Assembly: GCA_000091205.1 (NCBI GenBank)
Contig: AP006502.2
Strand: one strand, 5' to 3'
DNA: 64,000 nucleotides
DNA from: Cyanidioschyzon merolae
Taxonomy: Eukaryota
This document shows, one piece after another, positions 5,730-47,130 of the stretch. Under the pieces are notes generated by a model. That model was not told the origin of the DNA. It did no database searches and saw only the letters and a program-made list of their open reading frames with translations. Both the position numbers and the translations under genes were made by a program. Within the stretch, counting starts at the first letter, position 1. Each line of letters opens with the position of its first letter.

Positions 5730-5754
5730 TTAGAGTCTCAGTAGACGCAATGGG

Positions 5755-5790
<36 letters not shown>

Positions 5791-15892: not shown

Positions 15893-16262
15893 CAAAGGAC
15901 CCGCGATCCCTAGAGGTGGCTATTGCCGTGTTGCACACTCCCTAGGCAAAGCTTGTCTGATCTGAATATATACGCAAAGGATCCGCGATCCTTAAGGGTG
16001 GCTATTGCCGTGTTGCACACTCCCTAGGCAAAGCTTGTCTGATCTGAATATATACGCAAAGGATCCGCGATCCCTAAAGGGTGGCTATTGTCGTGTTGCA
16101 CACTCCCTAGGCAAAGCTTGTCTGATCTGAATATATACGCAAAGGATCCGCGATCCCTAAAGGGTGGCTATTGCCGTGTTGCACACTCCCTAGGCAAAGC
16201 TTGTCTGATCTGAATATATACGCAAAGGATCCGCGATCCCTAAAGGTGGCCACTTTAGCGTC
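15893..16262. repeat. Minisatellite of about 4.4 copies of an 83-bp unit, each carrying AATATATACG, about 150 bp upstream of the POL5-like start codon.
   Basis: The unit caaaggatccgcgatccctaaagggtggctattgccgtgttgcacactccctaggcaaagcttgtctgatctgaatatatacg recurs at 15893, 15975, 16057, 16140 and 16223 with over 95% identity. Confidence 0.9.
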
Positions 16263-16412
16263 ATACTTTCCCTTAGCAAATCGTTTCGATCGATACCCGT
16301 CGCCGTCCGCACACGTCTTTTCGCACGCGAGGCTCCCTGTGCTGCTCCGGTGCAAGGTGCAACCTTTGCGCTTGTGCCGGACTCGTTGACGAAGTTGTGT
16401 GGGTGTCCGGAT

Positions 16413-20124: not shown

Positions 20125-23100
20125 TTATGGTTGGAGAAGCTTGCGTAAGCGCTCCTTGTAGGCGTTGCATTCCATTTCCATTTCTGCGAGGCAGATAAGG
20201 AGCTCGTTGTGTTCTTCTCGAAGACGCCAAAGCTCCGCCTCCATGTCCGCAGCGCGCGGATCCACGTGGACTTGTGTGGCGTCCTGCTCTTGCTCCTGCG
20301 CTTTCACCACTGCCGCACCTGTTGCTGGTACTGCTGCTGATGCTGTTGCGAAAGCTGACGACGGCAACCAGGCGTGCTGCGAGCTGTCAGCACCGGATGC
20401 GTCCAGCTCGTTGACGTGCGTTGCTCGCCAGGGTTGCTGTGGTTGCGCCCGCTTGTCGTGGTGGTGCTGCTCGGCGAGTTGCTTGCGCAGCAACATGTTC
20501 TCATCGTGCACCATTTCGACTGCGCTGGCAAGTCGTGACTCGCGGGCAATGAGTTCCTCGATCTGTTTCTCTAGTTGCGCGATGAGGTCGCGCTGTGCAG
20601 CTGCACTGCTTGGCAACTCTGCCGCCGTCTCCATATGCTGGCTGTGGCTCCCTCTGGTATCGTCGGATGGATGCGCTGGCTCCAGTCGGGGCAGGTTCGT
20701 GTCGGTGAGCGCTTCTCGTGAAGATACCTGGTCGTCGCCGTTGTCGTCGTCGTCGTCGTCGTCGTCGTTGGGTGTCCCAGCAAGCACGCTGGCACGAGTT
20801 CCAGAGGCATTTGGATGCTGGGCGTGCTCCCATGCTGCCAAGCGTGCGCGTAGGGCGCTGATACAGGTCTGAAGACGAATGTTCTCTTGGCGAAGATCGC
20901 CGCTCGCCATGCGTTCTTTCACGAGAGAGCGCTGTAGCGCATCGACGGACGCTGGATCCGCTGCTGGGCCGTCCACATCATATGAAGCGCTGGAATCGTT
21001 TTCGGGACTTGCTCGGTACTGGGTTGTTTCTGGCGCTGATGCTTCGTCGAACGCGCGCTTGTGCGATGACGCAAGCGCAATCGTGCGCAGGTGTTCGATC
21101 TCTTCCTCGAGTTCCTGGAGGACTTGTTCATGGACCCGCATCATTTCACGCATACTGGCCTCGTGCCTAGATTCAAGTTCAGCTAACTGCCGTTCATAGG
21201 CATCGCGGACAAGTTGTACTTGATGGGTATGCTGCTCTCCAGCGAACGCTTTGTCAGCCCTGATCGCTGACTCGGCGTGATCATCATCATCATCATGATC
21301 GTCATCGCCATCGTTATCATCGGGGTCGTGCTCACCATGCATCGCTAGCACCGCAGGAACTGGCTGCGGTGAGCGCTCGTTGCGCCTCGCCTCCGAGTCT
21401 GCGACTTGTTCGGTACCCGTAGCACCAGCTGATAGGATGACAGCGCGGATTTGCGCCTGGAGGTTGTCAAACTCAAGTTCACATTCTTGCAATGTTGCCT
21501 GCTGATCAGTGAGCATATCAAGCTGCCGGTCGATTATGGCGAATTGCTTATCCCTCCAGAAGTGAACGGTCGACGCACATGCACTGACCTCGGATGCGGT
21601 CGCGTCTATCACTCCAGTGATCTGATCCGTAAGCGCTCGTCTCCATCGATGATGCTCCGCTTCGATCATATGGATGCGAGCACAGAGTGCTTCCTGTTGC
21701 TCCTCAGCGGTAGCCAGTCTCTGGTTGGTCTGGTGAAGCTCCGCTACGCACTCATCGTGCGCAAGCTGAGTCTCGGCGTGCTCCGCGAGTACTCGGTCCA
21801 GCTGCGATTGCAGTTCGTGGCTGATTTCCTCGTACTGCTTTTCCGCCGCCAGTGCTTCTTCACGCTCCAGGCCGAGGGCATTTTGCAAGTTCTGCACTTG
21901 ACTCTGTAGGTGCTGTACTTGGTCTTCTCGAGATGCAAGCGTTTCTTGCAAGAGTAAAACCTGAGCGCTAAGTTCCTCCAATTCAGCATCGCGCGTTTCG
22001 CTTTTGGATTCGAGCTCGCGATTTCTCGCTTCCAGTTCAGCAAGTTTCTCCCTATCCGCCTGGGCCTGTTCTAAAGAGATTTCCAACTCCCGTCGTTCAC
22101 TCTCAAGCTCTTCGCACCTTCGCGTGATCGTTCGCATGGAATCCTCCAGATCCTCGAGCCGGCGGCGGTCTCTGGTAGCCGCAGTCAACGCTTCTTCGTA
22201 TTCCTCGATGCGAGTCTGGTAGAGCTGCACCAGCTCCTCGAGTCTCTGTAGCTCTGCAGTTTGTCCGTCGCAGTCTGCATGCTGCTCTCTGAGCACAGTG
22301 AAGCTGTGGGAAACCTGCGCTAGATCTTCCTCCAGAGACCGGATACGCGAGTTCAACAACGCCTTCTCATGTACGTGAGCATCCAGTTCGGATTTCAGAT
22401 TTGTGCATGTTTCCTGAACACTTTCGAGACGACTTGCATGCTCCAGCAGAGAGTCTCGTTCGTCACAGACGTTTCGATATTGGGTTTCGAGTTCTGCGAG
22501 TTGCGTTTGCGCTGCTTGCTGGGCTGCTACCGCATGCCCGAGAGACGCGCATTCGCTCCGAAGCCTGTCTCGTTCGTCACAGACGTTTCGATATTGGGTT
22601 TCGAGTTCTGCGAGTTGCGTTTGCGCTGCTTGCTGGGCTGCTACCGCATGCCCGAGAGACGCGCATTCGCTCCGAAGCCTGTCTCGCTCGTCACAGACGC
22701 TTCGATACTGGGTTTCGAGTTCTGCGAGTTGCGTTTCAGACCGACGCAATTCCGCAAATGCATCCTCTAAACGCTGCCAGGATCCAACAGCATGCGAGAC
22801 AGGCCCTGCCTCGGCATACCCAGGCTTCAGATATCCAAACAGTTTCACCGCAGCGTCCTTGAGCGCACCCAGCGCAAGCCCTTTAATCAGTATCTCTTCC
22901 AGTATCAAAACCTCTACCCTGAACGCACCATAACCAGCAGCACGCTCCCGAGCGATTGCCTGATTCTTTCGCAAGGCATAAGCGAATAGTTCGGGAAGCG
23001 CCTCCAAGGGCGCAACACACGTCCCTACCTCTGGTGCAGTGCAGGCACCGACCGTCGTGCGCTGCAGCGTCATCTTCGCTTCTGCACTCCCGGACAGCAC

Positions 23101-26100
23101 CACAGATGCATCGCTGCCACGCGGGATATGTGCTGGCAGGATTGCGCTACACCGCCAGATGCGGGTACACAATGTATCCACGCGAGCCTCCATGGAGCGC
23201 AACGAGGCCAACACATGGACTAGGTCTCCATCGAAGCGATTGGACAGGTTGTGCAGGGCATCGAGGGCGATGCTGAGACGCCCACTTGCTGTCGTACCAG
23301 CAGCGAGCGCATTCGCCGGTGCAACCTCGCACCGCAAACTGTCCCCTGTTACCCAACGATCGATGAGTGCATCTGGAGGTTGATCAGCACTCGGCACACG
23401 CCCAGATACCACCATTGATGCGACTTGGGCTGCTCGTTCACCGCTCACACGAGACGCTGCCTCGAGCTCCGATTCACTGGGCTGCAGAGCGGCAAGCACA
23501 TCTGTTTGCGTGCCCGTCGAGGCCACGTCAGGTCGCTGGTGCTGGTCGTGCGTCGTCACCCGCTCTGCCGCTGAACGCAACGACGCCAGTTCCGTGCGCA
23601 GCGTATCACGTTCCTGTTCAAGTCGAATAACCTGTTCTTCAAGGATTTGCTGTGTTTCATAGGCATCTTCTTCGGATCGTTCCAACATTTTCTGCAGTGA
23701 AACAAGTTGGGTTTCGAGGTCCGCGATACGTTGCTCTCGGGAGCCTGCGTCGATAGCAGGGTCGAACGATGTATCTGCTCGCAGTACGGTAGCGAATCGA
23801 TCCTCGCTCGAAGAACGCAGAGGCGGTGCCTCACTCGCAGGATAGCGCGGACTTGCGGAGCCGCTGCCGCTAGCGTCTTCAGCGGCACTTTCGATCACTG
23901 CATCTGAGGGTGCCCCGTCAGCCCCAGTATTCGTACGATTTTGGGACTGGATGTAGTCCTCGAGCGCTCGCAACCGCTCTCGCAAGTGCGCATTCTCGAT
24001 TCGCACGAGTTCCGATGCGCTATCCTCGCCTCGCTCTGCATCCTCGAACTGGTTCAGGAGAATCATCAACCGCTCATTCTTCTGCCGTTCTTCGGCGAGT
24101 GCGCGTTCCAATATCCTGACATCAGTGATATCGCATGCTGACGACTCTGACGTCTCGTCGATGTACGCGTGCGCTTCGTTGCTTCGGAAATGATCCGCAG
24201 TCGTTCGCTCCGCGGGATCGCGGAAAACTCCACTATGCACGTGCTGTGCTGGCAGAACGCTCGACCCGTCATCGACGTGTGCACCAGCGTTCCTCAGTTG
24301 CTCGTTCTCTAGGGCGAGCGCTTCGCACGCTTTCGATATCGACTCCACATCGCGCTGGCGGCTCTGTAATGCCTGCTCCAGCGACGCCACCTGTTCCGTT
24401 AGTCGCCGTACCAAATCCTCGCGCTCAGTTAACTGGTCACGAACGAGCCTCAGTTCCTCCCTAAAACGCGACTCTGAGCCGCGCAGAAGCGAATCTGCAT
24501 AATCCTGACTCTCACGAAGGCTCCTGCGGAGCATTTCAACTTCTTCTTTGGATGCCAACAGCGCCTCGTCTTGTTTTCGAATCATTCTTTTGTATTCGTC
24601 GAGCTGAGCCACCATATCCTCGAGTTCTCGGATTCGCATCTGCATGGCTCGAATCTCATTTGATGATTTGTTTGTGGTGTCATCGAAGTGCCGGTTATCG
24701 ATAGATAACGAGCCGGGCGTCGCAAACTCCTTTGCGTTTCGAGGTGACGCACTCACCCCAACCTCAGCGGACTTGAGAGTCGAGCCCTGCATCTCGGTAT
24801 CAGAAGGCGGAACCTCTTGCTCCACATACTCGTGAAGAAGGCGTTTTTGGACGCAGTCATATACAGGCTCCATAATGGAGACAAGTTCTTGAGGAAAGAT
24901 ATACATATGTCCAAGTTCTTCAACTAGACCAGATCCTTGACGGGATTCGGTCGTCAAGACGCCTCTCGCGAAGCGTTGTTCCAGCAGCAGTCCAGGAGAG
25001 CCCGTGATCGCCGCTGCAAAGTATGCCGACGCTCGCACATCATCCAAGTAAGAAGCAAAGCGCATCAGTCCAATGCGTTTCCGCACAATACCGACCAGGG
25101 TTCTTGGCGATATCACCAGCGATTCCGCTTCTGCACACTCGAGTTCCATGCACTCGGCGATCGCCAGCGCTGCGAGGCCGCGGATATGCACGAAGAGCAT
25201 ACCTTCAGCACGGCTTCCCGACGATGAGACCAGGTCCATCAGCAGCGGCACATTCAGCGGTGTGGACAAGAACTTTTGGCGTGCTCTGTCTGAAACATAC
25301 AGCCAACAGCACAGGAGCAGCAACAGCGCTAGTCGCACTAATGGAGGACTGTTTTCGCGCACCGCACGCCCCAACGTACGCAGCAGCTTCATAAACAGAG
25401 GCTCACCTGCTGAGCATTCGCCCGTGAGCGCACCAGCACCTAGGACGACACGATATCTAGATACTGGCATCAGCAGCGGGTCCTGGTCGGCCACCGATGA
25501 ACCCTGAGCACAGCAGCGTACCATCCACGACGCCAACAGCGAGCACGCGTACAATACAGCAGCTGGGTCAGCTTCATCGGGCCAGCCGACAGCAACACCC
25601 AGCAGTTCAGAGACAACGCGCTGGAGCGCATGAGCAGTGCGTTCATCGATCGATTCGACGTCCTTCAATACTTCGGAAGCGTGCGGATTACTGGAGGCGG
25701 GATCGACGGCACCACAAGTCTGACGCTTGTCTGCCAACATCCAGGTGAACCAGCACAAGCCTGATTCGCTTTCCAGCCATACCATAGAAAGAAAGCAGAA
25801 CGCTGCTGCTCGCAGCTCCTGTGATGCGTGCTCCGTCATCATGTCCAACACGAATGCAAGAAAAAGCGTATGCACCTCTTTCCCGTTTGGTGCCCGGCTG
25901 GTACGTGCTTGGCTGGAATCATCGACTTCAGCGACAACAACCCAAAGTCCATGCAAGAATGATAGGGTCGCGACGTGATCTCGAGACAGGCGGCCTAAAG
26001 TCAGAAGACCTTGGACAACGACGGCGTCCGCGTTGCGAGCACTACAAATCAAGCGCGCGATGCTCTCTGTAACACCGTAATGGAGACAAAGTGCTCGAGT

Positions 26101-27489
26101 CCGTGGTTCCTTGTTCGTAGACTCGGCGCGCGACAAGTGATCGACTAAACCAATCGTCAAAATCAGGTTGTCCACTTGCACGGGTCGCAGTGCTTTCGCT
26201 GGATGATCAGCCAGGAACAAGAGCGGACAGAGCTTTGGGATGCAACCAGCCTCGGCGAAGAGCGTCGCGATCGCCGGATCACCATCCAGCAAAATATCCA
26301 TAAAAATCAGACAGTCTCGCGTGACCAAGTCCATGACGTCTGACGTGGACGCCAACACCATCGGTACATGTTGTTGCTGTCGTAGACTCTCGTCGGATGC
26401 AGATGTTCTCGCTAGCGACTCTGACTGCGGGCGGCCGGATGCTGGAAAGCCATCCGTATCATCTGTTTCTGAGTTATCGTCGGCATCGCCGTTTTCAGCA
26501 GGTGCGTATCTCCGAGATATCTGAACCTCATCGCTCTGCTCATCGACATGGACACTGACTTCCTCATAGCGTGCCTTGTCGATCATTTCGAACAAAAGTT
26601 CGAAAATATTTTCAAAAGCAAGTATTCTCTGGATTTCCCCGCTGTTGCGCGAGAGCTCCATGACGAGACGGAGGCCGTAGGTTCGTACCACCTCGCGCGG
26701 GTCCCGCAGTAAATCCATCATTCGCGAGACTCCTCGCGGGCAGCGAAGAACGGCTTTCTGTAATGGTGGCAGGGCATGCCTCGCGATATGCGTCAGCAAG
26801 TCGGACACCTGAAGCCGAACGGAGTAGTCACCGTCTGCGAGCAAGTCGAGCAGGCACGGTACAAGACCCAGTCCCGCTCGCTCGGAAGCGGTGACGGGTG
26901 GACTGGCGGCACCGAGCATCATAGACACAGCGGTGCGTATCGTGGACGCTGTGTCGGCACTCCACTTCCGCCAAATGTCTTCGTTTCGGTGCAACGGCGC
27001 AACGGCTTCCTTCGATTGGCAGCTGGTATTGCTTCGACGTCGCACGAGCGAACGCCTCTCTGAAGAGGCGGCCTGCGTGCTGTCCTCGAGCGAGCCCGCA
27101 AGACTCACGGTCGGCGCACAGAGAAGCAGTTGTAGCAAAGCGAGCGTACTTTGGATAAGTTCAGACTCCGTCCTGTCCTGCTCGAGGATAGCTCCCAGAA
27201 GAGGCACGCCCTTCGTTACCAACTCTTCCCGGAGGCTCAGCGCGACCCGCAGCGCTTCTGAGACCTCGTCACAGGCATCAGCATCAGCCTGCTCTAAGAG
27301 CTCGGCGACCTTATCGTCTGCCGCAGTCACCCGTCGGAGCAGGACCTCGACACACTGGAGACGTTCAGAGGGAAACCGCCCACAATGCAGCCGGTGTATA
27401 ATCAGGTCGAGCGCTTCTGTAACACCAGAGGTGGCCGGATTACGGTCAGCTCCAGCAACGTAGCGCGCTGCCTTGGTGATCAAGTTCAT
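20125..27489 (-). CDS. USO1: USO1/p115-like vesicle-tethering golgin of 2454 aa. An N-terminal armadillo-like head is followed by a very long coiled coil with poly-Asp tracts and three perfect 38-aa repeats.
   Basis: The N-terminus ...LGAILEQDRTESELIQSTLALLQLLL parallels the p115 head motif LQTDRSDSEIIGYALDTLYNI. The C-terminal two thirds is heptad-rich (LAELETQYRNVCDERDRLRSE...). DDDDDDDDD tracts are encoded by (GTC)n around 20742-20767 and 21283-21300. The ATG at 27487-27489 was verified. Confidence 0.65.
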   Translation of the reverse strand: MNLITKAARYVAGADRNPATSGVTEALDLIIHRLHCGRFPSERLQCVEVLLRRVTAADDKVAELLEQADADACDEVSEALRVALSLREELVTKGVPLLGAILEQDRTESELIQSTLALLQLLLCAPTVSLAGSLEDSTQAASSERRSLVRRRSNTSCQSKEAVAPLHRNEDIWRKWSADTASTIRTAVSMMLGAASPPVTASERAGLGLVPCLLDLLADGDYSVRLQVSDLLTHIARHALPPLQKAVLRCPRGVSRMMDLLRDPREVVRTYGLRLVMELSRNSGEIQRILAFENIFELLFEMIDKARYEEVSVHVDEQSDEVQISRRYAPAENGDADDNSETDDTDGFPASGRPQSESLARTSASDESLRQQQHVPMVLASTSDVMDLVTRDCLIFMDILLDGDPAIATLFAEAGCIPKLCPLLFLADHPAKALRPVQVDNLILTIGLVDHLSRAESTNKEPRTRALCLHYGVTESIARLICSARNADAVVVQGLLTLGRLSRDHVATLSFLHGLWVVVAEVDDSSQARTSRAPNGKEVHTLFLAFVLDMMTEHASQELRAAAFCFLSMVWLESESGLCWFTWMLADKRQTCGAVDPASSNPHASEVLKDVESIDERTAHALQRVVSELLGVAVGWPDEADPAAVLYACSLLASWMVRCCAQGSSVADQDPLLMPVSRYRVVLGAGALTGECSAGEPLFMKLLRTLGRAVRENSPPLVRLALLLLLCCWLYVSDRARQKFLSTPLNVPLLMDLVSSSGSRAEGMLFVHIRGLAALAIAECMELECAEAESLVISPRTLVGIVRKRIGLMRFASYLDDVRASAYFAAAITGSPGLLLEQRFARGVLTTESRQGSGLVEELGHMYIFPQELVSIMEPVYDCVQKRLLHEYVEQEVPPSDTEMQGSTLKSAEVGVSASPRNAKEFATPGSLSIDNRHFDDTTNKSSNEIRAMQMRIRELEDMVAQLDEYKRMIRKQDEALLASKEEVEMLRRSLRESQDYADSLLRGSESRFREELRLVRDQLTEREDLVRRLTEQVASLEQALQSRQRDVESISKACEALALENEQLRNAGAHVDDGSSVLPAQHVHSGVFRDPAERTTADHFRSNEAHAYIDETSESSACDITDVRILERALAEERQKNERLMILLNQFEDAERGEDSASELVRIENAHLRERLRALEDYIQSQNRTNTGADGAPSDAVIESAAEDASGSGSASPRYPASEAPPLRSSSEDRFATVLRADTSFDPAIDAGSREQRIADLETQLVSLQKMLERSEEDAYETQQILEEQVIRLEQERDTLRTELASLRSAAERVTTHDQHQRPDVASTGTQTDVLAALQPSESELEAASRVSGERAAQVASMVVSGRVPSADQPPDALIDRWVTGDSLRCEVAPANALAAGTTASGRLSIALDALHNLSNRFDGDLVHVLASLRSMEARVDTLCTRIWRCSAILPAHIPRGSDASVVLSGSAEAKMTLQRTTVGACTAPEVGTCVAPLEALPELFAYALRKNQAIARERAAGYGAFRVEVLILEEILIKGLALGALKDAAVKLFGYLKPGYAEAGPVSHAVGSWQRLEDAFAELRRSETQLAELETQYRSVCDERDRLRSECASLGHAVAAQQAAQTQLAELETQYRNVCDERDRLRSECASLGHAVAAQQAAQTQLAELETQYRNVCDERDSLLEHASRLESVQETCTNLKSELDAHVHEKALLNSRIRSLEEDLAQVSHSFTVLREQHADCDGQTAELQRLEELVQLYQTRIEEYEEALTAATRDRRRLEDLEDSMRTITRRCEELESERRELEISLEQAQADREKLAELEARNRELESKSETRDAELEELSAQVLLLQETLASREDQVQHLQSQVQNLQNALGLEREEALAAEKQYEEISHELQSQLDRVLAEHAETQLAHDECVAELHQTNQRLATAEEQQEALCARIHMIEAEHHRWRRALTDQITGVIDATASEVSACASTVHFWRDKQFAIIDRQLDMLTDQQATLQECELEFDNLQAQIRAVILSAGATGTEQVADSEARRNERSPQPVPAVLAMHGEHDPDDNDGDDDHDDDDDHAESAIRADKAFAGEQHTHQVQLVRDAYERQLAELESRHEASMREMMRVHEQVLQELEEEIEHLRTIALASSHKRAFDEASAPETTQYRASPENDSSASYDVDGPAADPASVDALQRSLVKERMASGDLRQENIRLQTCISALRARLAAWEHAQHPNASGTRASVLAGTPNDDDDDDDDNGDDQVSSREALTDTNLPRLEPAHPSDDTRGSHSQHMETAAELPSSAAAQRDLIAQLEKQIEELIARESRLASAVEMVHDENMLLRKQLAEQHHHDKRAQPQQPWRATHVNELDASGADSSQHAWLPSSAFATASAAVPATGAAVVKAQEQEQDATQVHVDPRAADMEAELWRLREEHNELLICLAEMEMECNAYKERLRKLLQP
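22453..22795. repeat. Three tandem copies of a 114-bp coding repeat (38 aa, QTQLAELETQYRNVCDERDRLRSECASLGHAVAAQQAA) inside the golgin coiled coil.
   Basis: gtctcgttcgtcacagacgtttcgatattgggtttcgagttctgcgagttgcg... recurs at 22453, 22567 and 22681 with near-perfect identity. Confidence 0.9.
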
Positions 27490-29840: not shown

Positions 29841-31313
29841 AGCACTAGCGCTACGTTCGTAGGCGCTCGCACACGCGAATCTGCATCATCGCGTAGCGCT
29901 CACGCTCATCGCCCGAATACGCTCATGGCTACGCGAACATTCATACAATCGTCAGGGCTGCCTGTCTTGCGAGTGCCTTTCACACGCGTGCTCGCTCACG
30001 GGTATGCTGCATACCTGCTCTGGTGCGTGGCTGTCTCTGATCTACGGCACGGTAGCGAGATGGTGTCGCGAATACACTTTAGAAGAGGTCTGCGCGCATT
30101 CGGGCTCTGCACATGTATACCAAGCCTCGGTGACGCCTCGTCTATTTCCTGAAGCGCATCAGATGCAAGTATGCAGTCATAGCGGCCTCTGACGGACTTG
30201 CGGTACCATCCGAGGTTCATATTCTCGATGCCTGCATGCTACGAGGGCACTGCAACTGGCTCAGTGGTGCATACGTTTCAGCCGGTGAGCAAATGCTCAG
30301 CAGTTGCTCGTCGAGATTTGTTTCGGAAGCAATAGAAGCCCCCTGTACATTCTAAACGGTGCTCGTTGTACAAGTATTGCATAGCGCTTGGTTCAGAGTC
30401 GGTACGGATTTCTTTCCGCCTGCGGAGGCGCCGCGGCCGTTCCGAGCGCTGCTTAGCTATCGGATGCCTGCAAAGCATAACGTGTCGGTGCTTTGAACGC
30501 TCGTTTCGTGCTTCTTGTTCCAGTGATTCCAGAACGAATTCATGGTATCTGAAGACGAGTCTCGAGGGCACAGTTCCATCAGAGGGCATACAATGAGCAC
30601 GACAAGCTTTACGCGTGCGTTCTACGCTCGATACATCGCGACTAGGGTCCGAATTCGGCACTTGCCTCTCACATTGAAGCGGAATCGAGTTGGGCACTGT
30701 TACCAGTGTCCAAACGTACATCATGAGCGTCTTGGAAGCCACTTGTGGAACCTGTCGAGACTCTTGCGGCCAACTGAAGTACGTCGCGAGCAGGCGTCAA
30801 CAGCAAGCGGCGCCAGTGCTGGCGTAAACTCGAACCGGAGACATTCAGTGTACACTGTAACGTTTTCGAGGGGTTCGTGACCAGACTGAGAGGAGGTCAA
30901 CGCACTGTCCCGTTTCGTCACGCGAGAGACGTTTCAAGTCACGGCCCAGAGGCAAAGCACTCCTACGCAGCTTCCGTGCCTAAGATTCTTGATGCTTCAC
31001 AAAACTTATATTTTCCTGGGTCCCGTTTATAACAAGAGTCATATTACACTACAGTCGGGCACGAGATACTGGAATGGAACACGACAGCCCCACCATGTGT
31101 GAGCGTGCCTGAGCGTTATCGCTTCGCGCACTCTGGAACGGTGGACTCTCACATCCCCAAGGACGGCAAAAGATCACACAAAGGCAGTCCTATTTGTACA
31201 CATATATACGATGATGATCCGTTTCGCGGGCATCATGCGCTGCATACACGGTCTCGCACCAGCGCTGACGTCCCGCAAGACATCTAGGTCCTGCGAGGCG
31301 CGGTTCAGTGCTG

Positions 31314-34280
31314 ATGTGGGCGCTATTCGAAAGAAAAGTCGAATGGAGCGCTCTTCACTCGGCTCACGCTTTTCATCTTGATAAGTATACTATAGATAGT
31401 TTGTTCCGTAGCGATTCCTTGGCGAAATCGGGGCAGTTGCACTTGGGGGCTCGGCACGGGTACACGAGCGGCACCGCTGTGCGGCAAGGCGAGTTGAGCT
31501 GGGTGTCGCCGGTTTGTTCGGGACTATTCGTAGCGCTCTCTGGGCGTTTAGTACAGAGACAGTGTTCTGGATGGAACGGTTTTGCGGCCGCACCGAGGCG
31601 TAGGCGTCGCGGCCAGCGCTGCGTTCTAAGCGTCAATCAACCTAAGGAAGAGCCGTCACCGCAACGAGCGCCACCTGCACACCCAGCGCCAACGCTACAT
31701 CAGCCGCAGCCGCTGCCACTACAGCAGCAGAATCAGCAGCAACCTCAACAGGCAACGGTGAACGCGTCACCGCTGTCGCTGTCGCCTTCGCTGCAGCAAG
31801 CGGAACAGCACTCGGCGCCCAAGTCGAGCACAACCCGCGTGCCAGCCTACAGCGCTCCGGTTGAACAGACCTTCCCAAGCCCAGACACCAGTACTGGCGA
31901 GCCTCTGAAATCTGAAAAGAATGGGAACACGTCTGCAACAGGGAAACATGCTTGCGAAGCCGATGCTACGCTGGACGCTATCTCCGCTAAAGTGATGCGA
32001 GAAATCCTGGGACCTCTCGTTGCTTATCTGGGCCCAGTGCCGTGCTTCAGCATTGAGCAGGCATTAAGTTTTGTGCTTAAGAGTCGCGCCGCCAAGGGAG
32101 AACATGTGTCTGAAGCTAGCCTCGAGCGCGCCACCGGGATCACGAGTATTCTCGCAGAACTCCAAATGGATAGCGATACGATTATCGCGGGAATCTTGAC
32201 GGAGCTCGTGGAGAGTGGCGTTGCATCCCTGGCCTCCATCGCGGAGCAGTTTGGCAATGCTGTTGCGCGCCTCATTGAGGGCGAGGCAAAAGTCAGCCGC
32301 CTACCTGAAATGGCCGAGAGTCCGATAGCTGATGAAAACGTTGAAAACCTACGCCAAATGTTCATCGCCATGGCTTCCGATTTTCGTATCATCGTTATCA
32401 AGCTCGCAGCTCGCCTGCACACCATGCGAACACTGCAGACGCTCCCAGCAGAGCGCCAACGACGAATCGCTCGGGAAACACTGGACATCTTTGCACCGCT
32501 AGCGCACCGCCTAGGAATCTGGTCAGTGAAGAGCCACTTGGAGAATCTCGCCTTTCTCTATCTCTACCCCGAAGAGTACCGGAAGATTCGGTCTCATATC
32601 GAGGGGCGCATGCCCTCCTACAAACGGATTCTGGAGGAGAGCAAAGCGCGCCTCGAGCATGCGCTGAGCAGCGATCCAATCCTCAGGCGCACGGTTAGTC
32701 GTATTGAGGTTGCAGCGCGTTCCAAGGAAATCTATTCCATTTGGCAGAAACTACAACGCGGACGCGCACAGCGCCTGGATCATATATACGACCTGGTTGC
32801 GTTGCGGGTGACGATTGATCCGCGCGAGGACCTGTCCGTAGTCGGCACGAGCGGTACAAATGAAATGGATCGAGATGAGGCCGAGAAAACGCGGCTCCGC
32901 GATGACGAGAATGGGCTCTGCTATTACGTGCTCGGTATCGTCCATCAACTGTGGCACCCCGTTCCCGGACGTGTGAAGGACTACATCGCTTTTCCGAAAC
33001 CGAATGGCTATCAGTCACTGCACACCACGGTCGTGGTAGACAACGGCTCCGATCAGGCACCGCTCGAGGTTCAAATTCGAACCCGGGCGATGGATCGCAC
33101 AGCAGAGTACGGTATGGCTGCACACTGGTACTTCAAGGAACATGACCAACTGACGGCCGCCGCGTCCAACTCCTGGTTAACGAGCATTCAAGAGTGGAAT
33201 CTGGATATCCAGTCTTCTCACGAATTTGTGGAACTTGTAAGACGCGAATTGCTCGGCAACCGGGTTTTTGTGTTCGTGAACGATACGAATACCGAGAACG
33301 CGACCCGCATCCTGAATCTACCTCGAGGGTCCACGGTGGTGGATGTTGCATTCGCGATCAGCGCAGATGCCGGGTACCGCATGATCGCGGCGAAAGTGAA
33401 TGGCTCGATGGTACCCATGAACTACGTTCTCCAAAATGCGGACATGATCCAGATCGTGCGGAGCAAGTACTCACCAGGTCCCAGCTTGGAGTGGGTCCAG
33501 TACGCGAAGACGAGGCTTGCGCAGCATGCGCTGCGGCAGTTTTTCGCCCGTTGGCAAGGTGAGACGGAGCTTCCAAAACATTTTACGAGTGCTGCGGATC
33601 CGGACCTCGAGTCTGGGAGTAGCGCAAACGACAAGAATGGTGAGCCAGGTATCGACGGGAACTCGTCGAAAGCGGCTTCTAATGAGGAACGCCAGTTCCG
33701 CTGGGATCGTTCACAGCGCAGCGAAGACGCCGTGAACAGCTTCCTAAGTAGCATGAAGCCAGAAGACCTTCTCGATGATATGTGCTTACAAATCTCGCCT
33801 GCTCAACTCGTTTTCGAGGACGGACTCGAAATCGCTTCCGCGTCCATGGCGCGCTGCTGCCTGCCTCTGCCGAGCGACAAAATTTTCGGTGTCATCGCAG
33901 ACGGTGCCAGTCAGGTGGAAATTCATCGACAGGGATGCGCAGTAGGGCAGCGCGCCCTAGTGCAGACCAGCGGCGCGCGCAAACTCTCCGTCCAGTGGCA
34001 GAGCCCAGCGCGTAGCGGGACCACGCGTGCAGCACGGCTTCCCGCTTGTCTGAAAGTGACCTGCATTGATCGAAATGGCCTTCTCAGCGATGTCAGTCGG
34101 GCAGTTATTGAAAAAGGCATCACAATTCTGTCGACCCGAAGCACCTCTACGCAGAACACAGCTTACCTGGAGTACTGCGTTGCTGTCATCAATCGAACTG
34201 AACTTGATTCCTTATGTGCCGCCCTGCGCGATATCCCTGGGGTTGTCACCGTGGAAGACGGCTTGGCGCCGCACGTCTAA
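31314..34280 (+). CDS. RelA/SpoT homolog (RSH) (p)ppGpp synthetase of long-form architecture: pseudo-HD, synthetase, TGS and ACT domains, preceded by an N-terminal Q/P-rich extension of about 230 aa.
   Basis: It aligns to E. coli SpoT/RelA as FRIIVIKLAARLHTMRTLQTLPAERQRRIARETLDIFAPLAHRLGIW and RSKEIYSIWQKLQRG...YDLVALRVTI...FPKPNGYQSLHTTV...EVQIRTRAMDRTAEYGMAAHWYFKE. A TGS-like block (VFVFVNDTN...MIQIV) and a C-terminal ACT (LKVTCIDRNGLLSDVSRAVIEKGITILS) follow. The hydrolase HD dyad reads ILTELVESG at 32193-32219 where SpoT has LLHDVIEDT. Confidence 0.85.
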   Translation: MWALFERKVEWSALHSAHAFHLDKYTIDSLFRSDSLAKSGQLHLGARHGYTSGTAVRQGELSWVSPVCSGLFVALSGRLVQRQCSGWNGFAAAPRRRRRGQRCVLSVNQPKEEPSPQRAPPAHPAPTLHQPQPLPLQQQNQQQPQQATVNASPLSLSPSLQQAEQHSAPKSSTTRVPAYSAPVEQTFPSPDTSTGEPLKSEKNGNTSATGKHACEADATLDAISAKVMREILGPLVAYLGPVPCFSIEQALSFVLKSRAAKGEHVSEASLERATGITSILAELQMDSDTIIAGILTELVESGVASLASIAEQFGNAVARLIEGEAKVSRLPEMAESPIADENVENLRQMFIAMASDFRIIVIKLAARLHTMRTLQTLPAERQRRIARETLDIFAPLAHRLGIWSVKSHLENLAFLYLYPEEYRKIRSHIEGRMPSYKRILEESKARLEHALSSDPILRRTVSRIEVAARSKEIYSIWQKLQRGRAQRLDHIYDLVALRVTIDPREDLSVVGTSGTNEMDRDEAEKTRLRDDENGLCYYVLGIVHQLWHPVPGRVKDYIAFPKPNGYQSLHTTVVVDNGSDQAPLEVQIRTRAMDRTAEYGMAAHWYFKEHDQLTAAASNSWLTSIQEWNLDIQSSHEFVELVRRELLGNRVFVFVNDTNTENATRILNLPRGSTVVDVAFAISADAGYRMIAAKVNGSMVPMNYVLQNADMIQIVRSKYSPGPSLEWVQYAKTRLAQHALRQFFARWQGETELPKHFTSAADPDLESGSSANDKNGEPGIDGNSSKAASNEERQFRWDRSQRSEDAVNSFLSSMKPEDLLDDMCLQISPAQLVFEDGLEIASASMARCCLPLPSDKIFGVIADGASQVEIHRQGCAVGQRALVQTSGARKLSVQWQSPARSGTTRAARLPACLKVTCIDRNGLLSDVSRAVIEKGITILSTRSTSTQNTAYLEYCVAVINRTELDSLCAALRDIPGVVTVEDGLAPHV

Positions 34281-36281: not shown

Positions 36282-37544
36282 GACTGCGCTGCAAAAGCGG
36301 TATGTTCGTAGTTACATAGACCCAAGAGGAAAGACGTAGAGCTGGTGCAATGTGCGCCCGCGCCATGCCAGCGCTGTGAAACATTCGCATCTGGAGATGT
36401 GCTGGTATGGGGCGCGCTTACTATCACCCGGTGCTGCGCTGAACGGGATCACGTCGGGACGACACACGCTCCGGCACGCTTCGAGTGTTCGTCGTTGTTT
36501 CCAGTTGGACCTGGTCGTGTCTCGCCACGTACGAAATCTCTGCTCTTTTGAGGGATGCCCGCCGGACGCGACGGCAACTCGTTCTTCGAGGCGTCGCCTC
36601 GTTGGCGCTGCCTCCAGCGTGTTACGCCCAAGCTCTGTTTGGTGTTGCTCAGGTGACTGGGCCAGTGGCGTCAGTCTGAGCACTGTATTCTGTTGCCACG
36701 GTAAGCAACGTGTGTATATGTTTGTTTATGTACAGGGTGCAGAGCAGCGCGTTGCGGGATACCGTCCTGCCCTGGCTTGTTGCTGCTGGTAAGGTGCTGT
36801 GCGCTCTCTGGGCGCACGGTGCTCATTTGTCATAGGTTCTTCAGGGATTTGTTTTGCATCCATATGAGCTGGTCCTTTTGCTACGGTTGCACGTAGCGTA
36901 GAGAGCTACAGGTCCGCTCCCGGGGCACTACAGGCGCTGCCAACCAAAAAACATGTGCTCGCGGGTACCAGGAGCACGAATATGTTCGTGACGCTCCGAG
37001 GCTCTACTTCGCTCCGCGAAAAACTGGAAACGCTTTTGCGTTCTACAGCTTTCGCCTACGCTGAATACGGAATTCTTTATTGCTGACGGACCTGCGAAGT
37101 TACCTAGCTCCCGCGTATGCCCAAACTGTCGCCTACAACCTGGGCAGCACGCGCAGCTCCACATGCGTCAAGCGCTCGCAGTGCGGAACAGGATCCGCAG
37201 CTCGGGCACGAAGTGAGCAGCAACGGTATCTGCCCTGTATCGAAAAGGACGGTGAGTTGCTGCATCTTCTCGAACCAGAACAGAATTGATTGATGCGCGC
37301 GCCCAGTCATTCGATGAACGATCCTCAGGTGGTCCGTAGCATTCACATCATGGGCTGGGCATTTCAACGAAGCACCTTCAAAACCGAGAGCCTGGTGCAT
37401 GCCTGCATGCGGGGAGTTCCGATGGATACGCAGGGCCACGTTCGCATCTGTCGAGGCTGGACAGACGCCCACATTGATGGTCTCATCCGCGAATCGCATT
37501 GCCTGCATGGTGCCTGGAACGGCGTCCTGTGCCGGCCGGGGTTC

Positions 37545-38154
37545 CTATTCGGCTAAGACGATCGTACATACCGACTTGTCATTACCAGAGCGCATGCGGA
37601 GTTGCTTCCGTATCCGGGTATCAAAGCAGCCTGTTCTTTGCGTTAAGGGCTCGGACAATGCCCAGCGAAACATTGAATGTCCCACGACGGTAGAGTGTAT
37701 AAAGACACCCGCGCGCAGACGCTTCCCAACGTTTCTGGACCCACCGACTGCTATCGGTTTCAATTTCTCTTTGCAAACTTGGAGCTTGAGAGGATGTCCC
37801 GCAAAGTTGGCTGGTACCAGCTCCCCGGGTTTCGTTTTCAGCACCGCACATCGTCGGATGCCGTTGACGTGTCGGTTCACGAACTGCATGCGTTTATTGC
37901 ATCTGATGGAACTCACCATTGCAAGGATTCCTAGAACTAGCGCCCTCTGTGCCACTACAGCCTTGTCATCGTCCGGTCGGGCAAACACCTTTTCTTGTCT
38001 GTCTCTCATCGTCATCTTCTTCCTCGTCACGTGCTTATCTTCGCTCGATGGTCGGCGAGATGAGGATTTTTTCGTTTTTTCGGCAGCCGGTGGCGGCGGT
38101 CCTCATGGTTCCCAACTGTCATGTCCATACGTTTCCCACGTCTTTTATATTTGA
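37545..38154 (-). mobile_element. Relic fragment (copy c) of the TnpB/Fanzor-like element, with a degenerate RuvC-III region and 3-prime module, lying just 3-prime of the RPS5 gene.
   Basis: Minus ORF 37545..38030 contains CNKRMQFVNRHVNGIRRCAVLKTKP, a decayed version of VNRD-NAA-NI-RCAVL. Its DNA aligns to copy a (positions 150-420), and an MCGAENETRGAG peptide in frame 37621..37851 parallels MCGAEDETRGAG in copy a. No intact domains remain. Confidence 0.45.
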
Positions 38155-45493: not shown

Positions 45494-46651
45494 TTAAACT
45501 ACTGGAGCGGATGCTGCAAGGCATGCACGGTCACTCGATAGAGTATACGAATCGACCAGTATATCCGAGAAGAAGCATGGGCTATGGGACTCGGAAGTAG
45601 ATGGAATGATGGACGTCTTCCCGCGCATGGCCACACCAAACGCCGTTCGAAAGTCGAACGACGCCAACGGTGTACAGTAGTGGCGGGAAAACCGCGCCCT
45701 AGACAAAACGTCTCCAACTGACGTCCAGACGCCTCCCGCCTTTTTGGACCGGTCACCTACTACTGATTCCAATTCTTTCTCATATAAATCGACTTTGAGT
45801 GATTGTCCAATAAAGTTCTCTCTTGTCAGCTCTGGAGGTCTTTCCTCCAGCACCGCACATTTCCTCATATTGATTGCGGCATTAAAGTCTCGGTTCACGA
45901 GCTCCATCCGTTTCTTGCCATCACTGGTTGTACTTACTAATGCGAGTAGTCGACGAACTTTCGCCCTCCATTCCATTTGCTCTTCCTTCAGCGGTCCGTA
46001 CTTTGCTATTTCCTCAGGGCTCCTCTGGCACTTTTCCATCTCGGCCCTTTGAAGTGTGCACCCCAGTTCATGGTGTGTATACGATGTCCGAAACTCATCT
46101 ATTGGTATCGTAACAGAACGCCCTGCGCACTCCTTGTACACCCTCGTCGTTGGAGCTGGCGTAGTTCCTTTTTGTGTCTTCCAGCACCCTGCTCTGTACG
46201 CTAACACGAGCCTTTGAGTCTTGTCCTCTTTGAGGGCACTCAACTCATTGAAACAATTCGCGAATGCCCGCGGCTTCCCACAATACAAATTCATTCGTAA
46301 ACGTGCCCACCGGGGCTTGGTATACTCCTTCCACAGCGTATCCCAATGCGCCATGCGAACTTCCATGAATTTCCGAAAGGCTTCAAAGTCCGCTCCTCGG
46401 TTAGTCACGTCGCTCAAAGCTTCCAGGTGATCTTTCATTCCTGAATTCCACGTCTCAATTTTCTTTCTCGTATTCATGATTCCCGATTCTCGATAGTATC
46501 TCGCTCTCGAGAACCTCAAAAGACGCATGTGTTTCTGACGTAAGTTACCATCAGCACCATCTTCCGCACGCTTGGGTACAGCGATGGTTACGATATTCGT
46601 ATTCCCAGGGTCCGCGCCAACGACAAAGTCGTTATCTTGCACTTTCTGCAT
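45494..46651 (-). pseudogene. RuvC-domain portion of the copy-B TnpB/Fanzor-like gene; its ORF reads through the ancestral stop into the 3-prime module.
   Basis: Copy C terminates 9 codons after RCAVV (TAG at 60732-34), whereas copy B has CAG at the aligned position and continues more than 100 codons into sequence that is conserved non-coding in the other copies. Confidence 0.55.
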
Positions 46652-47130
46652 CGCAGGATCCGCCTTCTTGTTTTCTTAATGCTTCGTCGCGTCAACGACA
46701 AGGTCGTTATCTTGCACCTCCTGCATCACAGGATCCGCCGTCTTCTCATCTTCATCCTTCGTAATGTCAACAACAAGGTCGTTATTCTCTACCTCCTGAG
46801 TCGCAGGATCCTCTTCTTTGTTTTCTTCATGCTTCGCCGCGCCAATGATAAAGCCGTTATCCTGCACCTCCTGCGTCGCAGGATCCGCCGTCTTCTCATC
46901 TTCATCCTTCGTAATGTCAACAACAAGGTCGTTATTCTCTACCTCCTGAGTCGCAGGATCCTCTTCTTTGTTTTCTTCATGCTTCGCCGCGCCAATGATA
47001 AAGCCGTTATCCTGCACCTCCTGCGTCGCAGGATCCGCCGTCTTCTCATCTTCATCCTTCGTAATGTCAACGACAAAGTCGTTATTCTCTACCTCCTGAG
47101 TCGCAGGATCCTCCTCTTTGTTTTCTTCAT
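46620..47130. repeat. Perfect 150-bp tandem array (two 75-bp half-units; about 3.4 units) inside copy B. It encodes [25 protein letters not shown] / [25 protein letters not shown] and duplicates the segment just N-terminal to RuvC-I.
   Basis: tcttctcatcttcatccttcgtaatgtcaac recurs at exactly 46741, 46891 and 47041. The repeat peptide [17 protein letters not shown] parallels the native [20 protein letters not shown] that opens the RuvC-I block. Copy C has only one unit. Confidence 0.9.

What the first reader, a model, noticed from the sequence alone, without database searches (positions are those of the whole stretch)
32118..32570. RelA/SpoT homolog with a pseudo-hydrolase domain (HD replaced by TE) and intact synthetase: a RelA-like alarmone synthetase in a eukaryote
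In the stretch aligning to SpoT GEPYITHPVAVA...LLHDVIEDT the protein reads ERATGITSILAE...ILTELVESG. The metal-binding His and the HD dyad are therefore lost (T-E at 32199-32204), and ADRTHNMRT becomes AARLHTMRT. The synthetase motifs (RSKEIYSIWQKL, YDLVALRV, PKPNGYQSLHTTV, EVQIRT, AAHWYFKE) and the TGS and ACT domains are intact. This predicts a synthetase-only long RSH with a Q/P-rich N-terminal extension of about 230 aa and no obvious cleavable presequence.
Basis: partly seen in the sequence, partly recalled or inferred. Interest (0 to 1): 0.55.

Follow-up and report, generated by a model that had tools for sequence, protein, structure and literature searches.

The report
Known red-alga RSH with dead hydrolase
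This is an already catalogued nuclear gene of the red alga Cyanidioschyzon merolae for a long RelA/SpoT-type enzyme that has lost its alarmone-degrading site and probably still makes ppGpp, which is a useful detail but not a surprise.

Summary
The ORF 31314-34280 (+) is identical to C. merolae 10D BAM83520.1/XP_005539556.1, annotated "ppGpp synthetase/hydrolase Rel". It is already listed as an RSH1-family protein in published RSH catalogues.

Against B. subtilis and Thermus Rel, all four Mn2+ ligands are replaced: H53R, H77T, D78E (T-E at 32199-32204) and D144A. D82, N148, R44, K45 and Y50 are also replaced. The domain still folds like Rel and is under purifying selection, so it is a pseudo-hydrolase.

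"Intact synthetase/TGS" is overstated. The Gly equivalent to RelSeq G240 is Ala (32715-32717), and the TGS His that reads the tRNA CCA end is Ser. The other nine synthetase residues scored are conserved.

The decay is graded among sister Cyanidiaceae lineages and absent in Galdieria. A C. merolae paralogue has the opposite pattern: hydrolase intact, synthetase degenerate.

Best reading: a probably plastid-targeted, synthetase-only RSH1. It resembles RelA by convergence only (RXKD motif, not in the RelA clade). Activity and localisation are untested. Interest is low.

The parts
31314..34280 (+). Complete intronless CDS (988 aa plus stop) of C. merolae RSH1-family protein BAM83520.1 / XP_005539556.1
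   Evidence: ORF list. Exact-sequence match in the protein collection.
31314..31634 (+). N-terminal residues 1-107, a possible plastid presequence. Features: MWALF start, LFVALSG (31524-31544), GFAAAPRRRRRG (31578-31613); residues 61-107 contain no acidic residue.
   Evidence: The start Met and the open frame are conserved in syntenic orthologues L001 and L002, but sequence identity is only 18-27%. Composition. Comparison with the RPE N-terminus MCAFIV. Targeting itself is inferred, not shown.
31635..31997 (+). Q/P-rich low-complexity linker (residues 108-228), largely specific to this lineage
   Evidence: Q+P = 29%. About 50 residues are absent from L001 and L002, and identity is 14-29%.
32061..32522 (+). 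Pseudo-hydrolase domain (Pfam HD_4, residues 250-403): fold retained, catalytic site lost
   Evidence: HD_4 E = 3.9e-44. Site table. AlphaFold2 model and Foldseek, TM-score normalised to the target up to 0.90 against Rel N-terminal regions. pN 0.16-0.18 against a saturated pS of about 0.78.
32127..32129 (+). Arg272 in place of Mn ligand H53
32199..32204 (+). Thr296-Glu297 in place of the H77-D78 dyad
32211..32216 (+). Glu300-Ser301 in place of the catalytic E81-D82 pair (Asp lost)
32409..32423 (+). A-R-L-H-T in place of D144-R-L-H-N148 (Mn ligand D144 and N148 both lost)
32718..33146 (+). RelA_SpoT synthetase domain (residues 469-611). R241, K243, D264, R269, RVKD (32970-32981), Y308, H312, E324, Q326 and R328 equivalents are all present.
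   Evidence: Pfam E = 1.7e-33. Site table. No amino-acid polymorphism in this domain among 11 environmental variants.
32715..32717 (+). Ala468 in place of the conserved synthetase Gly (RelSeq/B. subtilis G240)
   Evidence: Shared by all seven Cyanidiophyceae orthologues, whereas Gly is present in the 114 non-Cyanidiophyceae hits scored.
33309..33458 (+). TGS domain (residues 666-715), the most conserved part of the protein (96-100% identity among Cyanidiaceae). Ser683 (33360-33362) replaces the CCA-sensing His.
33573..33728 (+). Predicted disordered, variable insert where bacterial Rel has part of the alpha-helical domain
   Evidence: pLDDT < 50 for model residues 526-577. 41-42% identity to orthologues over residues 756-840. 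Pfam RelA_AH_RIS (PF19296) is not listed for any of the Cyanidiophyceae proteins, while it is listed for most bacterial hits.
33855..33938 (+). Zinc-finger/RIS motif CCLPLPSD...EIHRQGC
   Evidence: Sequence located. PF28438 RelA_RIS is precomputed for the cluster representative and the orthologues.
34038..34256 (+). C-terminal ACT/RRM domain (residues 909-981)
   Evidence: ACT_4 E = 1.1e-11

Best explanation
The gene encodes the 'red RSH1'-type long RelA/SpoT homologue of Cyanidioschyzon merolae. It is made in the cytosol and is probably imported into the plastid through its long N-terminal extension.

Its hydrolase domain survives only as a folded scaffold. The Mn2+ site and the ppGpp-binding residues are gone, so it cannot degrade (p)ppGpp. 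Its synthetase domain keeps the ATP-, Mg2+- and guanine-binding residues and most likely still transfers pyrophosphate from ATP to GDP/GTP.

The TGS, zinc-finger and ACT domains are retained and constrained, so activity is probably regulated through them. The tRNA-CCA-sensing His is missing and the helical domain is partly replaced by a disordered insert, so the trigger is probably not the classical deacylated-tRNA signal.

Degradation of ppGpp would fall to the paralogue XP_005538788.1, which has an intact hydrolase site and a degenerate synthetase. This is a RelA/SpoT-like division of labour that arose independently.

Shown here: gene identity, domain architecture, loss of the hydrolase residues, conservation of the synthetase residues, retention of the fold, purifying selection, and graded decay in sister lineages. 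Inferred: synthetase activity, plastid location, mode of regulation, and partnership with the paralogue.
For: - Identity: exact match to BAM83520.1/XP_005539556.1.
- Architecture: HD_4 + RelA_SpoT + TGS + ACT; TIGR00691 scores 500.7 against a cut-off of 499.2.
- Hydrolase: H53R, H77T, D78E, D82S, D144A, N148T, R44E, K45H, Y50S against B. subtilis and Thermus Rel.
- Synthetase: 9 of 10 catalytic positions kept against 1 of 9 hydrolase positions (Fisher p = 0.001). The nine are invariant in all seven Cyanidiophyceae orthologues.
- No amino-acid polymorphism in the synthetase domain among 11 environmental variants.
- A Gly-to-Ala change at the same position is tolerated in the active synthetase PtRSH4a (Avilan 2019).
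- Fold: AlphaFold2 pLDDT 83.6; Foldseek hits RelA 5iqr at E = 2e-37 and Rel N-terminal regions at target-normalised TM-score 0.78-0.90.
- Constraint on the pseudo-domain: 71-75% amino-acid identity and pN of about 0.17 against a saturated pS of about 0.78 relative to the syntenic orthologues L001 and L002.
- Graded decay: Galdieria is canonical. L002 keeps the four Mn ligands but has lost R44, K45, Y50, D82 and N148. L001 has additionally lost D78, and P0022 has lost H77. C. merolae has lost all four ligands.
- Paralogue: hydrolase residues intact, but G240V, R241A, R269Q, R295H and R328F (sequence, table).
- Biological context: ppGpp inhibits plastid rRNA transcription in C. merolae (Imamura 2018, as summarised).
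Against: - No enzymatic or genetic test of this protein was found. Imamura 2018, the one experimental paper on C. merolae RSHs, could not be read.
- Substitution of G240 is the criterion commonly used to infer loss of synthetase activity.
- The localisation prediction recorded in Avilan 2019 Table S2 gives no chloroplast call for this protein, unlike the other three C. merolae RSHs.
- The first 60 residues are 10% acidic, which is atypical of a transit peptide.
- Synonymous sites are saturated, so dN/dS could not be estimated properly.
Confidence: 0.6

Rival explanations
1. Doubly inactive pseudoenzyme. The hydrolase is dead, and the G240->Ala change together with the altered C-terminal region also silences the synthetase. 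The protein would then act only as a (p)ppGpp- or ribosome-binding regulator or scaffold.
For: - G240 is replaced by Ala, and substitution at this site is widely used to infer loss of synthetase activity.
- The TGS His is lost and the helical domain is partly disordered.
- C. merolae already has a demonstrated synthetase, CmRSH4b.
- Another C. merolae protein with a degenerate HD motif, CMO005C, has been proposed to act as a sensor.
Against: - Every other ATP-, Mg- and guanine-contacting residue scored is invariant across Cyanidiophyceae. This includes Galdieria, where the Ala is already present alongside a canonical hydrolase.
- Ala at this position is compatible with activity in PtRSH4a.
- The synthetase domain is 83-85% identical to the orthologues and carries no polymorphism. 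That pattern is hard to explain if catalysis were lost.
Confidence: 0.22
2. Still bifunctional. A cryptic or re-wired hydrolase site uses other residues, so the protein behaves like the diatom enzyme PtRSH1 from the same clade.
For: [quoted passage not shown]
- The domain is well folded and conserved.
- E81, H147 and T151 remain.
Against: - All four Mn2+ ligands are replaced, along with the catalytic Asp and the R44/K45/Y50/N148 substrate contacts.
- Sister lineages carry different residues at the same positions. That is the signature of relaxed constraint, not of a re-engineered site.
Confidence: 0.03
3. Active synthetase that works outside the plastid, in the cytosol or the mitochondrion, giving C. 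merolae a non-plastid alarmone pool.
For: - No chloroplast call in Avilan 2019 Table S2.
- Acidic residues within the first 60 amino acids.
- A Mesh1-like protein is located in C. merolae mitochondria.
Against: - RSHs from plants and from the red alga that have been localised experimentally are chloroplast proteins.
- The conserved start is followed by an N-terminal Phe, like a bona fide plastid enzyme in the same window.
- Residues 61-107 are basic and free of acidic residues.
- The C-terminal domains are those that dock on bacterial-type ribosomes.
Confidence: 0.15

Closest known systems
E. coli RelA (monofunctional long RSH of gamma/beta-proteobacteria)
   Same: Long RSH architecture with an inactive pseudo-hydrolase domain kept as a scaffold, a synthetase domain, and TGS, zinc-finger and ACT C-terminal domains. 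RelA 5iqr is the best Foldseek match (E = 2e-37). It is paired with a separate hydrolase-competent paralogue.
   Different: The loss of the hydrolase is independent. The RelA equivalog model scores 328.5 bits against a cut-off of 728. The protein has RVKD (the RXKD type of bifunctional Rel; own knowledge of Sajish et al. 2007) rather than RelA's EXDD. The TGS His used for CCA recognition is Ser. The helical domain is partly replaced by a disordered insert. It is eukaryotic and nuclear-encoded, with a 228-aa N-terminal extension.
Diatom PtRSH1 and other 'red RSH1 clade' enzymes (Avilan et al. 2019)
   Same: Same published clade and the same HD-SYN-TGS-ACT architecture. Diatom RSH1 proteins are the closest non-Cyanidiophyceae eukaryotic hits, at 40-46% identity.
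   Different: PtRSH1 is an experimentally bifunctional enzyme with canonical hydrolase residues and Gly at position 240. The C. merolae protein has lost the hydrolase site and has Ala at position 240.
Galdieria sulphuraria orthologue (P0023; presumably XP_005705328.1)
   Same: Sister sequence in the published tree. It shares Ala at G240, all other synthetase residues, and loss of the TGS His (Asp in Galdieria).
   Different: Galdieria keeps every hydrolase residue (HFHHDEDDN against the reference KYHHDEDDN) and lacks the long Q/P-rich extension. Its branch is shorter (0.25 against 0.61).
C. merolae paralogue XP_005538788.1 and plant RSH1 (e.g. Arabidopsis RSH1)
   Same: Same extended RSH1 family and the same full-length architecture.
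   Different: The degeneration is a mirror image. The hydrolase is intact, while the synthetase has lost G240, R241, R269, R295 and R328. This is like plant RSH1, which acts as the main ppGpp hydrolase.
PtRSH4a, and CmRSH4b (CMN082C) and other RSH4-type synthetases
   Same: Algal RSHs with degenerate hydrolase domains that act as ppGpp synthetases. PtRSH4a also has Ala at the G240 position and is active.
   Different: They belong to the RSH4 family, have a much more divergent hydrolase region and lack the full TGS-ACT C-terminal region.

Membership tests
Long RSH (RelA/SpoT homologue superfamily) | N-terminal HD-fold domain followed by a RelA_SpoT nucleotidyltransferase domain | tested here: met
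   Pfam HD_4 E = 3.9e-44 and RelA_SpoT E = 1.7e-33. PDB Rel N-terminal regions match at E = 7e-87. Foldseek target-normalised TM-score up to 0.90.
Long RSH (RelA/SpoT homologue superfamily) | C-terminal regulatory region with TGS, zinc-finger/RIS and ACT/RRM domains | tested here: met
   TGS E = 1.1e-13 and ACT_4 E = 1.1e-11. CC...H..C motif at 33855-33938. TIGR00691 scores 500.7 against a cut-off of 499.2, which is only just above threshold.
Archaeplastida/algal RSH1 family (red RSH1 clade) | Phylogenetic placement with algal RSH1 and Deinococcus-Thermus Rel | tested here: met
   The nearest hits outside Cyanidiophyceae are diatom RSH1 and Meiothermus/Thermus Rel. The published ML tree puts XP_005539556.1 as sister to Galdieria XP_005705328.1 within RSH1 (support 94.2/0.997/99). 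I did not compute a tree of my own.
Archaeplastida/algal RSH1 family (red RSH1 clade) | Intact (p)ppGpp hydrolase domain, stated to characterise the extended clade (Avilan 2019) | tested here: not met
   Only 1 of 9 hydrolase positions is retained and all four Mn ligands are lost. The protein is therefore an atypical, hydrolase-dead member by descent.
Archaeplastida/algal RSH1 family (red RSH1 clade) | Plastid targeting | tested here: inconclusive
   For: conserved start Met, Phe at position 5, and a basic, acid-free stretch at residues 61-107. Against: no chloroplast call in the published prediction. No targeting predictor was available here.
RelA (monofunctional synthetase of gamma/beta-proteobacteria) | Membership of the RelA orthologue group | tested here: not met
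   NCBIfam NF008124 (RelA equivalog) scores 328.5 bits against a cut-off of 728. Published trees place the protein elsewhere.
RelA (monofunctional synthetase of gamma/beta-proteobacteria) | Catalytically dead pseudo-hydrolase domain | tested here: met
RelA (monofunctional synthetase of gamma/beta-proteobacteria) | EXDD charge motif in the synthetase domain (own knowledge: Sajish et al. 2007) | tested here: not met
   The motif is RVKD at 32970-32981, i.e. the RXKD type.
RelA (monofunctional synthetase of gamma/beta-proteobacteria) | TGS His that recognises the 3' CCA of deacylated tRNA (E. coli H432 / B. subtilis H420; own knowledge) | tested here: not met
   Ser683 occupies this position.
RelA (monofunctional synthetase of gamma/beta-proteobacteria) | Activation by a stalled ribosome carrying deacylated A-site tRNA | not testable with these tools
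   Requires biochemistry with plastid 70S ribosomes.
Bifunctional Rel/SpoT | Mn2+ ligands H53, H77, D78, D144 and the catalytic E81-D82 pair | tested here: not met
   The residues are R, T, E, A and E-S. The SpoT equivalog NF008303 scores 357 against a cut-off of 947.
Catalytically competent (p)ppGpp synthetase | R241, K243, D264, R269, Y308, H312, E324, Q326 and R328 (B. subtilis numbering) | tested here: met
   All are present, and they are invariant in the seven Cyanidiophyceae sequences.
Catalytically competent (p)ppGpp synthetase | Conserved Gly240 before R-x-K | tested here: not met
   Ala468 occupies this position. The same substitution is tolerated in PtRSH4a, so this is not decisive.

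The most novel reading that the evidence does not exclude
The Cyanidiaceae preserve a RelA/SpoT-style subfunctionalisation in progress inside a eukaryote. After the split from Galdieria, the red-RSH1 enzyme stopped hydrolysing ppGpp, and its Mn site has since decayed ligand by ligand in separate lineages: none lost in L002, one in L001 and in P0022, all four in C. merolae. The paralogue kept only the hydrolase. The TGS domain is nearly invariant among Cyanidiaceae yet lacks the tRNA-CCA His (Ser in C. merolae, L001 and L002; P0022 retains His). This would imply that this plastid synthetase is switched on by a signal other than deacylated tRNA.
Probability: 0.4. Interest if true: 0.4.

Novelty: already known. 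Interest (0 to 1): 0.2.

Why it matters
It matters modestly, for two reasons.

1. The GenBank product name, "ppGpp synthetase/hydrolase Rel", is misleading, and the published generalisation that RSH1-clade enzymes have intact hydrolase domains has an exception here. Anyone modelling ppGpp homeostasis in this model red alga should treat XP_005539556.1 as a likely synthetase-only enzyme and XP_005538788.1 as the likely hydrolase.

2. The graded decay among close relatives is a tidy natural example of how a bifunctional Rel becomes RelA-like.

It does not reveal a new kind of system. RSH enzymes in plastid-bearing eukaryotes, and monofunctional long RSHs with pseudo-hydrolase domains, are both well established.

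Tried and rejected
1. A bacterial or contaminant origin was rejected. The protein is an exact match to a C. merolae nuclear protein, the neighbours are eukaryotic genes (COPB', DNA pol phi-like, DnaJ, RNase H2, RPS5, diphthamide synthase) and the window ends in telomere-like repeats.

2. A sequencing or assembly error at the HD site was rejected. Eleven independent environmental variants carry R/T/E/A.

3. HMMER alignments to three solved Rel proteins and a MAFFT alignment agree on the register. No His-Asp pair lies nearby.

4. Per-domain dN/dS could not be obtained. Synonymous sites are saturated against L001 and L002 (pS 0.75-0.98), so only pN against pS and amino-acid identity are reported. 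The >99% identical variants were available only as proteins, and their few polymorphisms are only suggestive.

5. An out-of-frame upstream ORF (31211-31381, MMIRFAGIMRC...) looked like a transit peptide. It has no counterpart upstream of the orthologues, so it was not adopted as an alternative N-terminus.

6. Looking for the locus tag or for expression and proteomic data in supplements led nowhere.

7. Imamura et al. 2018 could not be opened by PubMed id or by DOI. Whether this particular gene was assayed there is unknown to me.

8. The colour-coded HYD/SYN columns of Avilan 2019 Table S2 are lost in the text copy. I could not see how those authors scored this protein's hydrolase.

9. No tRNA gene is present in the window.


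Full report
**Numbering**

Residues of the window protein are numbered from the ATG at 31314 (988 aa, as in GenBank). Pfam coordinates were reported from the GTG at 31308 and are 2 higher. Reference positions use B. subtilis Rel numbering, which matches the RelSeq numbering I recall at the hydrolase positions and G240, taken from the alignment to PDB 6yxa.

**1. What is there**

A single uninterrupted ORF runs from 31308/31314 to 34280 on the + strand. The 988-aa product is identical to BAM83520.1 / XP_005539556.1, annotated "ppGpp synthetase/hydrolase Rel" of Cyanidioschyzon merolae 10D, on a 1.62-Mb contig. The downstream neighbour, an RNase HII-family protein, matches the next GenBank entry, BAM83521.1.

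The rest of the window is typical eukaryotic nuclear DNA with long intronless ORFs:
- COPB'-like, DNA pol phi-like, a 2454-aa Uso1/p115-like ORF, DnaJ, RPS5/S7e and diphthamide synthase;
- HVA22, ribulose-phosphate epimerase, a SpoU methylase and RNase PH.

There are no tRNA genes. The window ends in degenerate GGGGGAAC/T repeats, which look telomeric. The statement "in a eukaryote" is therefore correct.

**2. Checking the observation**

Pfam finds HD_4 (E = 3.9e-44), RelA_SpoT (1.7e-33), TGS (1.1e-13) and ACT_4 (1.1e-11). The NCBIfam spoT_relA subfamily model is only just passed (500.7 against 499.2). The RelA and SpoT equivalog models are far below their cut-offs.

HMMER alignments to solved Rel proteins (the mycobacterial-type RelA chain 8fr8_I, B. 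subtilis 6yxa, Thermus 6s2v) and a MAFFT alignment agree on the register.

| Reference position | Role | Residue in this protein | Window coordinates |
|---|---|---|---|
| H53 | Mn ligand | Arg272 | 32127-32129 |
| E81-D82 | catalytic pair | Glu300-Ser301 | 32211-32216 |
| D144 | Mn ligand | Ala366 | within 32409-32423 |
| N148 | substrate contact | Thr370 | within 32409-32423 |
| R44 / K45 / Y50 | substrate contacts | Glu / His / Ser | not listed |

All four Mn2+ ligands and five further catalytic or substrate residues are gone. Of the nine hydrolase positions scored, only E81 remains.

GEPYITHPVAVA corresponds to SEASLERATGIT, not ERATGITSILAE. This does not change the conclusion.

The quoted synthetase strings are all present. 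R241, K243, D264, R269, R295/K297 (RVKD), Y308, H312, E324, Q326 and R328 are conserved.

Two departures were missed:
- The Gly before R-x-K (G240) is Ala468 (GCG, 32715-32717).
- The TGS His that reads the tRNA 3' CCA (B. subtilis H420) is Ser683 (33360-33362).

Eleven environmental variants of the protein, more than 99% identical, all carry the same residues, so this is not an assembly artefact.

**3. Is the dead domain still a domain?**

An AlphaFold2 model of residues 229-988, built from a 78-sequence alignment, has mean pLDDT 83.6. The only long low-confidence stretch is model residues 526-577, which correspond to protein residues 754-805. Foldseek returns ribosome-bound RelA (5iqr, E = 2e-37), B. 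subtilis Rel, SpoT, and Rel N-terminal catalytic regions at target-normalised TM-score 0.78-0.90.

Two syntenic orthologous loci were recovered from metagenome/SRA assemblies: L001 and L002. Both have the gene order DnaJ - RSH - RNase HII - RPS5, as in the window. Amino-acid identity to these orthologues, by region:

| Region | Identity |
|---|---|
| Pseudo-hydrolase domain | 71-75% |
| Inter-domain helices | 92-97% |
| Synthetase domain | 83-85% |
| TGS | 96% (100% between L001 and L002) |
| N-terminal 228 residues | 14-29% |

For the pseudo-hydrolase domain, pN is 0.16-0.18 against a saturated pS of about 0.78. Because synonymous sites are saturated, no dN/dS value is claimed. The pseudo-hydrolase domain is nonetheless clearly kept by selection as a structural or regulatory module, as in RelA.

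**4. Evolutionary context**

Of the hits that could be scored, 111 have canonical Mn ligands, Gly240 and the TGS His. Three more are N-terminally truncated but otherwise canonical. Every deviation sits in Cyanidiophyceae.

| Sequence | Hydrolase site state |
|---|---|
| Galdieria (P0023-25) | All Mn-ligand and catalytic residues canonical |
| L002 | Keeps H53, H77, D78, D144; has lost R44, K45, Y50, D82, N148 |
| L001 | As L002, plus D78->Gln |
| P0022 | Has H77->Tyr |
| C. merolae | All four Mn ligands lost |

The replacement residues differ between lineages at the same positions. That pattern fits one loss of function in the Cyanidiaceae ancestor, after the split from Galdieria, followed by relaxed, lineage-specific decay.

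Ala at G240 is shared by all Cyanidiophyceae, including Galdieria. The TGS His is replaced in all of them except P0022. All other synthetase residues are unchanged in every one of these sequences. That argues the Ala is compatible with function.

The contrast of 9 of 10 synthetase positions kept against 1 of 9 hydrolase positions kept is significant (Fisher p = 0.001). None of the 15 amino-acid polymorphisms in the environmental variants falls in the synthetase domain.

**5. The paralogue**

Avilan et al. 2019 list four C. merolae RSHs. The second RSH1, XP_005538788.1 (sequence), keeps every hydrolase residue. It has G240V, R241A, R269Q, R295H and R328F, and AMEFWPE in place of AAHWxYK.

The two RSH1 paralogues are therefore degenerate in complementary ways. 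This parallels RelA and SpoT, and it parallels plant RSH1, which acts as a hydrolase.

**6. N-terminus**

No in-frame Met occurs between residue 1 and residue 228, so the extension is part of the protein if ATG 31314 is used. In L001 and L002 the frame stays open well upstream of the automatically called starts. It contains a Met in a matching context: MFLSLGLEGWKAL and MFLISNFEGWKGL, against MWALFERKVEWSAL in the window protein.

- Residues 61-107 have no acidic residue and are 17% Arg/Lys. They end in RRRRRGQRCVLSVNQP, a motif echoed in the orthologues.
- Ribulose-phosphate epimerase in the same window starts MCAFIVTG, and P0022 starts MSPAFVAYG. Both show the N-terminal Phe motif I know from red-algal transit peptides.
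- A presequence is therefore plausible.
- Against this, the first 60 residues are 10% acidic, and the published prediction gives no chloroplast call.
- Localisation remains open.

**7. Comparison with what is known**

Atkinson et al. 2011 already catalogued four C. merolae RSHs. They wrote that the alga has "Rsh1[HS], Rsh1[S] and Rsh4[S]", and that some algal Rsh1/4 proteins have degrading HD domains. I cannot verify which protein they called Rsh1[S].

Avilan et al. 2019 place XP_005539556.1 as sister to Galdieria XP_005705328.1, on a long branch (0.61 against 0.25). This pair sits beside the CASH/diatom RSH1 group that contains the bifunctional PtRSH1. They describe the clade as having an intact hydrolase domain and as potentially bifunctional throughout. 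This protein is an exception to that description.

They also show that PtRSH4a, with Ala at the G240 position, is an active synthetase. The only C. merolae RSH with published activity that I could trace is CmRSH4b, CMN082C.

**8. Verdict**

- The hydrolase-dead observation is correct and robust (confidence about 0.95).
- "Synthetase-only" is the best reading, but it rests on residue conservation and is qualified by G240A (about 0.65-0.7).
- "RelA-like" is a functional analogy, not membership. The RXKD motif, the missing TGS His, the partly disordered helical region and the phylogeny all differ from RelA.
- The gene and its family are already in the literature and databases, so novelty is low.
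- The small additions here are the complete residue audit, the graded decay among sister lineages, the mirror-image paralogue and the altered TGS sensor residue.

Noticed in passing
window 63879-64000: The window ends in about 14 degenerate 9-nt repeats (GGGGGGAAC, GGAGGGAAC, then GGGGGGAAT). They resemble the C. merolae telomere repeat as I recall it, so the window probably abuts a chromosome end.
   Followed up: partly
window 31211-31381 (+), out of frame with the RSH CDS: An upstream ORF of 56 codons starts ATGATG and overlaps the annotated RSH start by 68 nt. Its product, MMIRFAGIMRCIHGLAPALTSRKTSRS..., looks like a transit peptide. No counterpart exists upstream of the orthologues in L001 or L002, so it is probably chance or a lineage-specific uORF.
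   Followed up: partly
window 49640-50662 (+): A ribulose-phosphate 3-epimerase ORF. Its first Met is followed by CAFIVTG and about 50 basic or hydroxylated residues before the catalytic domain. It looks like a textbook red-algal Phe-type plastid transit peptide and is useful as an internal comparison.
   Followed up: partly
window 46613-47138: Tandem repeats of 150 bp (3.2 copies, 95% matches) with a 75-bp sub-period lie in a region of low GC (0.49) and strong negative GC and AT skew. ORFs of about 240 aa overlap each other on both strands there (46637-47374 + and 46676-47386 -). Which strand codes, if either, was not determined.
   Followed up: no
window 15893-16250: An intergenic tandem repeat of 83 bp (4.3 copies, 96% matches) lies just upstream of the DNA pol phi-like ORF (16350-19859).
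   Followed up: no
window 20125-27489 (-): A very long intronless ORF of 2454 aa has only a weak Uso1/p115 head match (E = 7e-8). It contains an internal 114-bp repeat of 2.5 copies at 22453-22736. The region also shows a marked AT skew (-0.24 at 20-22 kb).
   Followed up: no
window 2906-4078 (-), 4138-4854 (-), 5730-7664 (-), 13481-14248 (-), 37399-38154 (+), 45494-46651 (-), 60930-61601 (+): Seven ORFs of 223-644 aa have no Pfam match at E <= 1e-5. They may be lineage-specific genes or non-coding ORFs.
   Followed up: no
L001 3641-6463 and L002 3381-6203: The automatically called starts of the orthologous RSH genes (L001 4001, L002 3699) are probably about 110-120 codons too far downstream. 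The frame is open upstream and contains a Met in a context matching the C. merolae start.
   Followed up: partly
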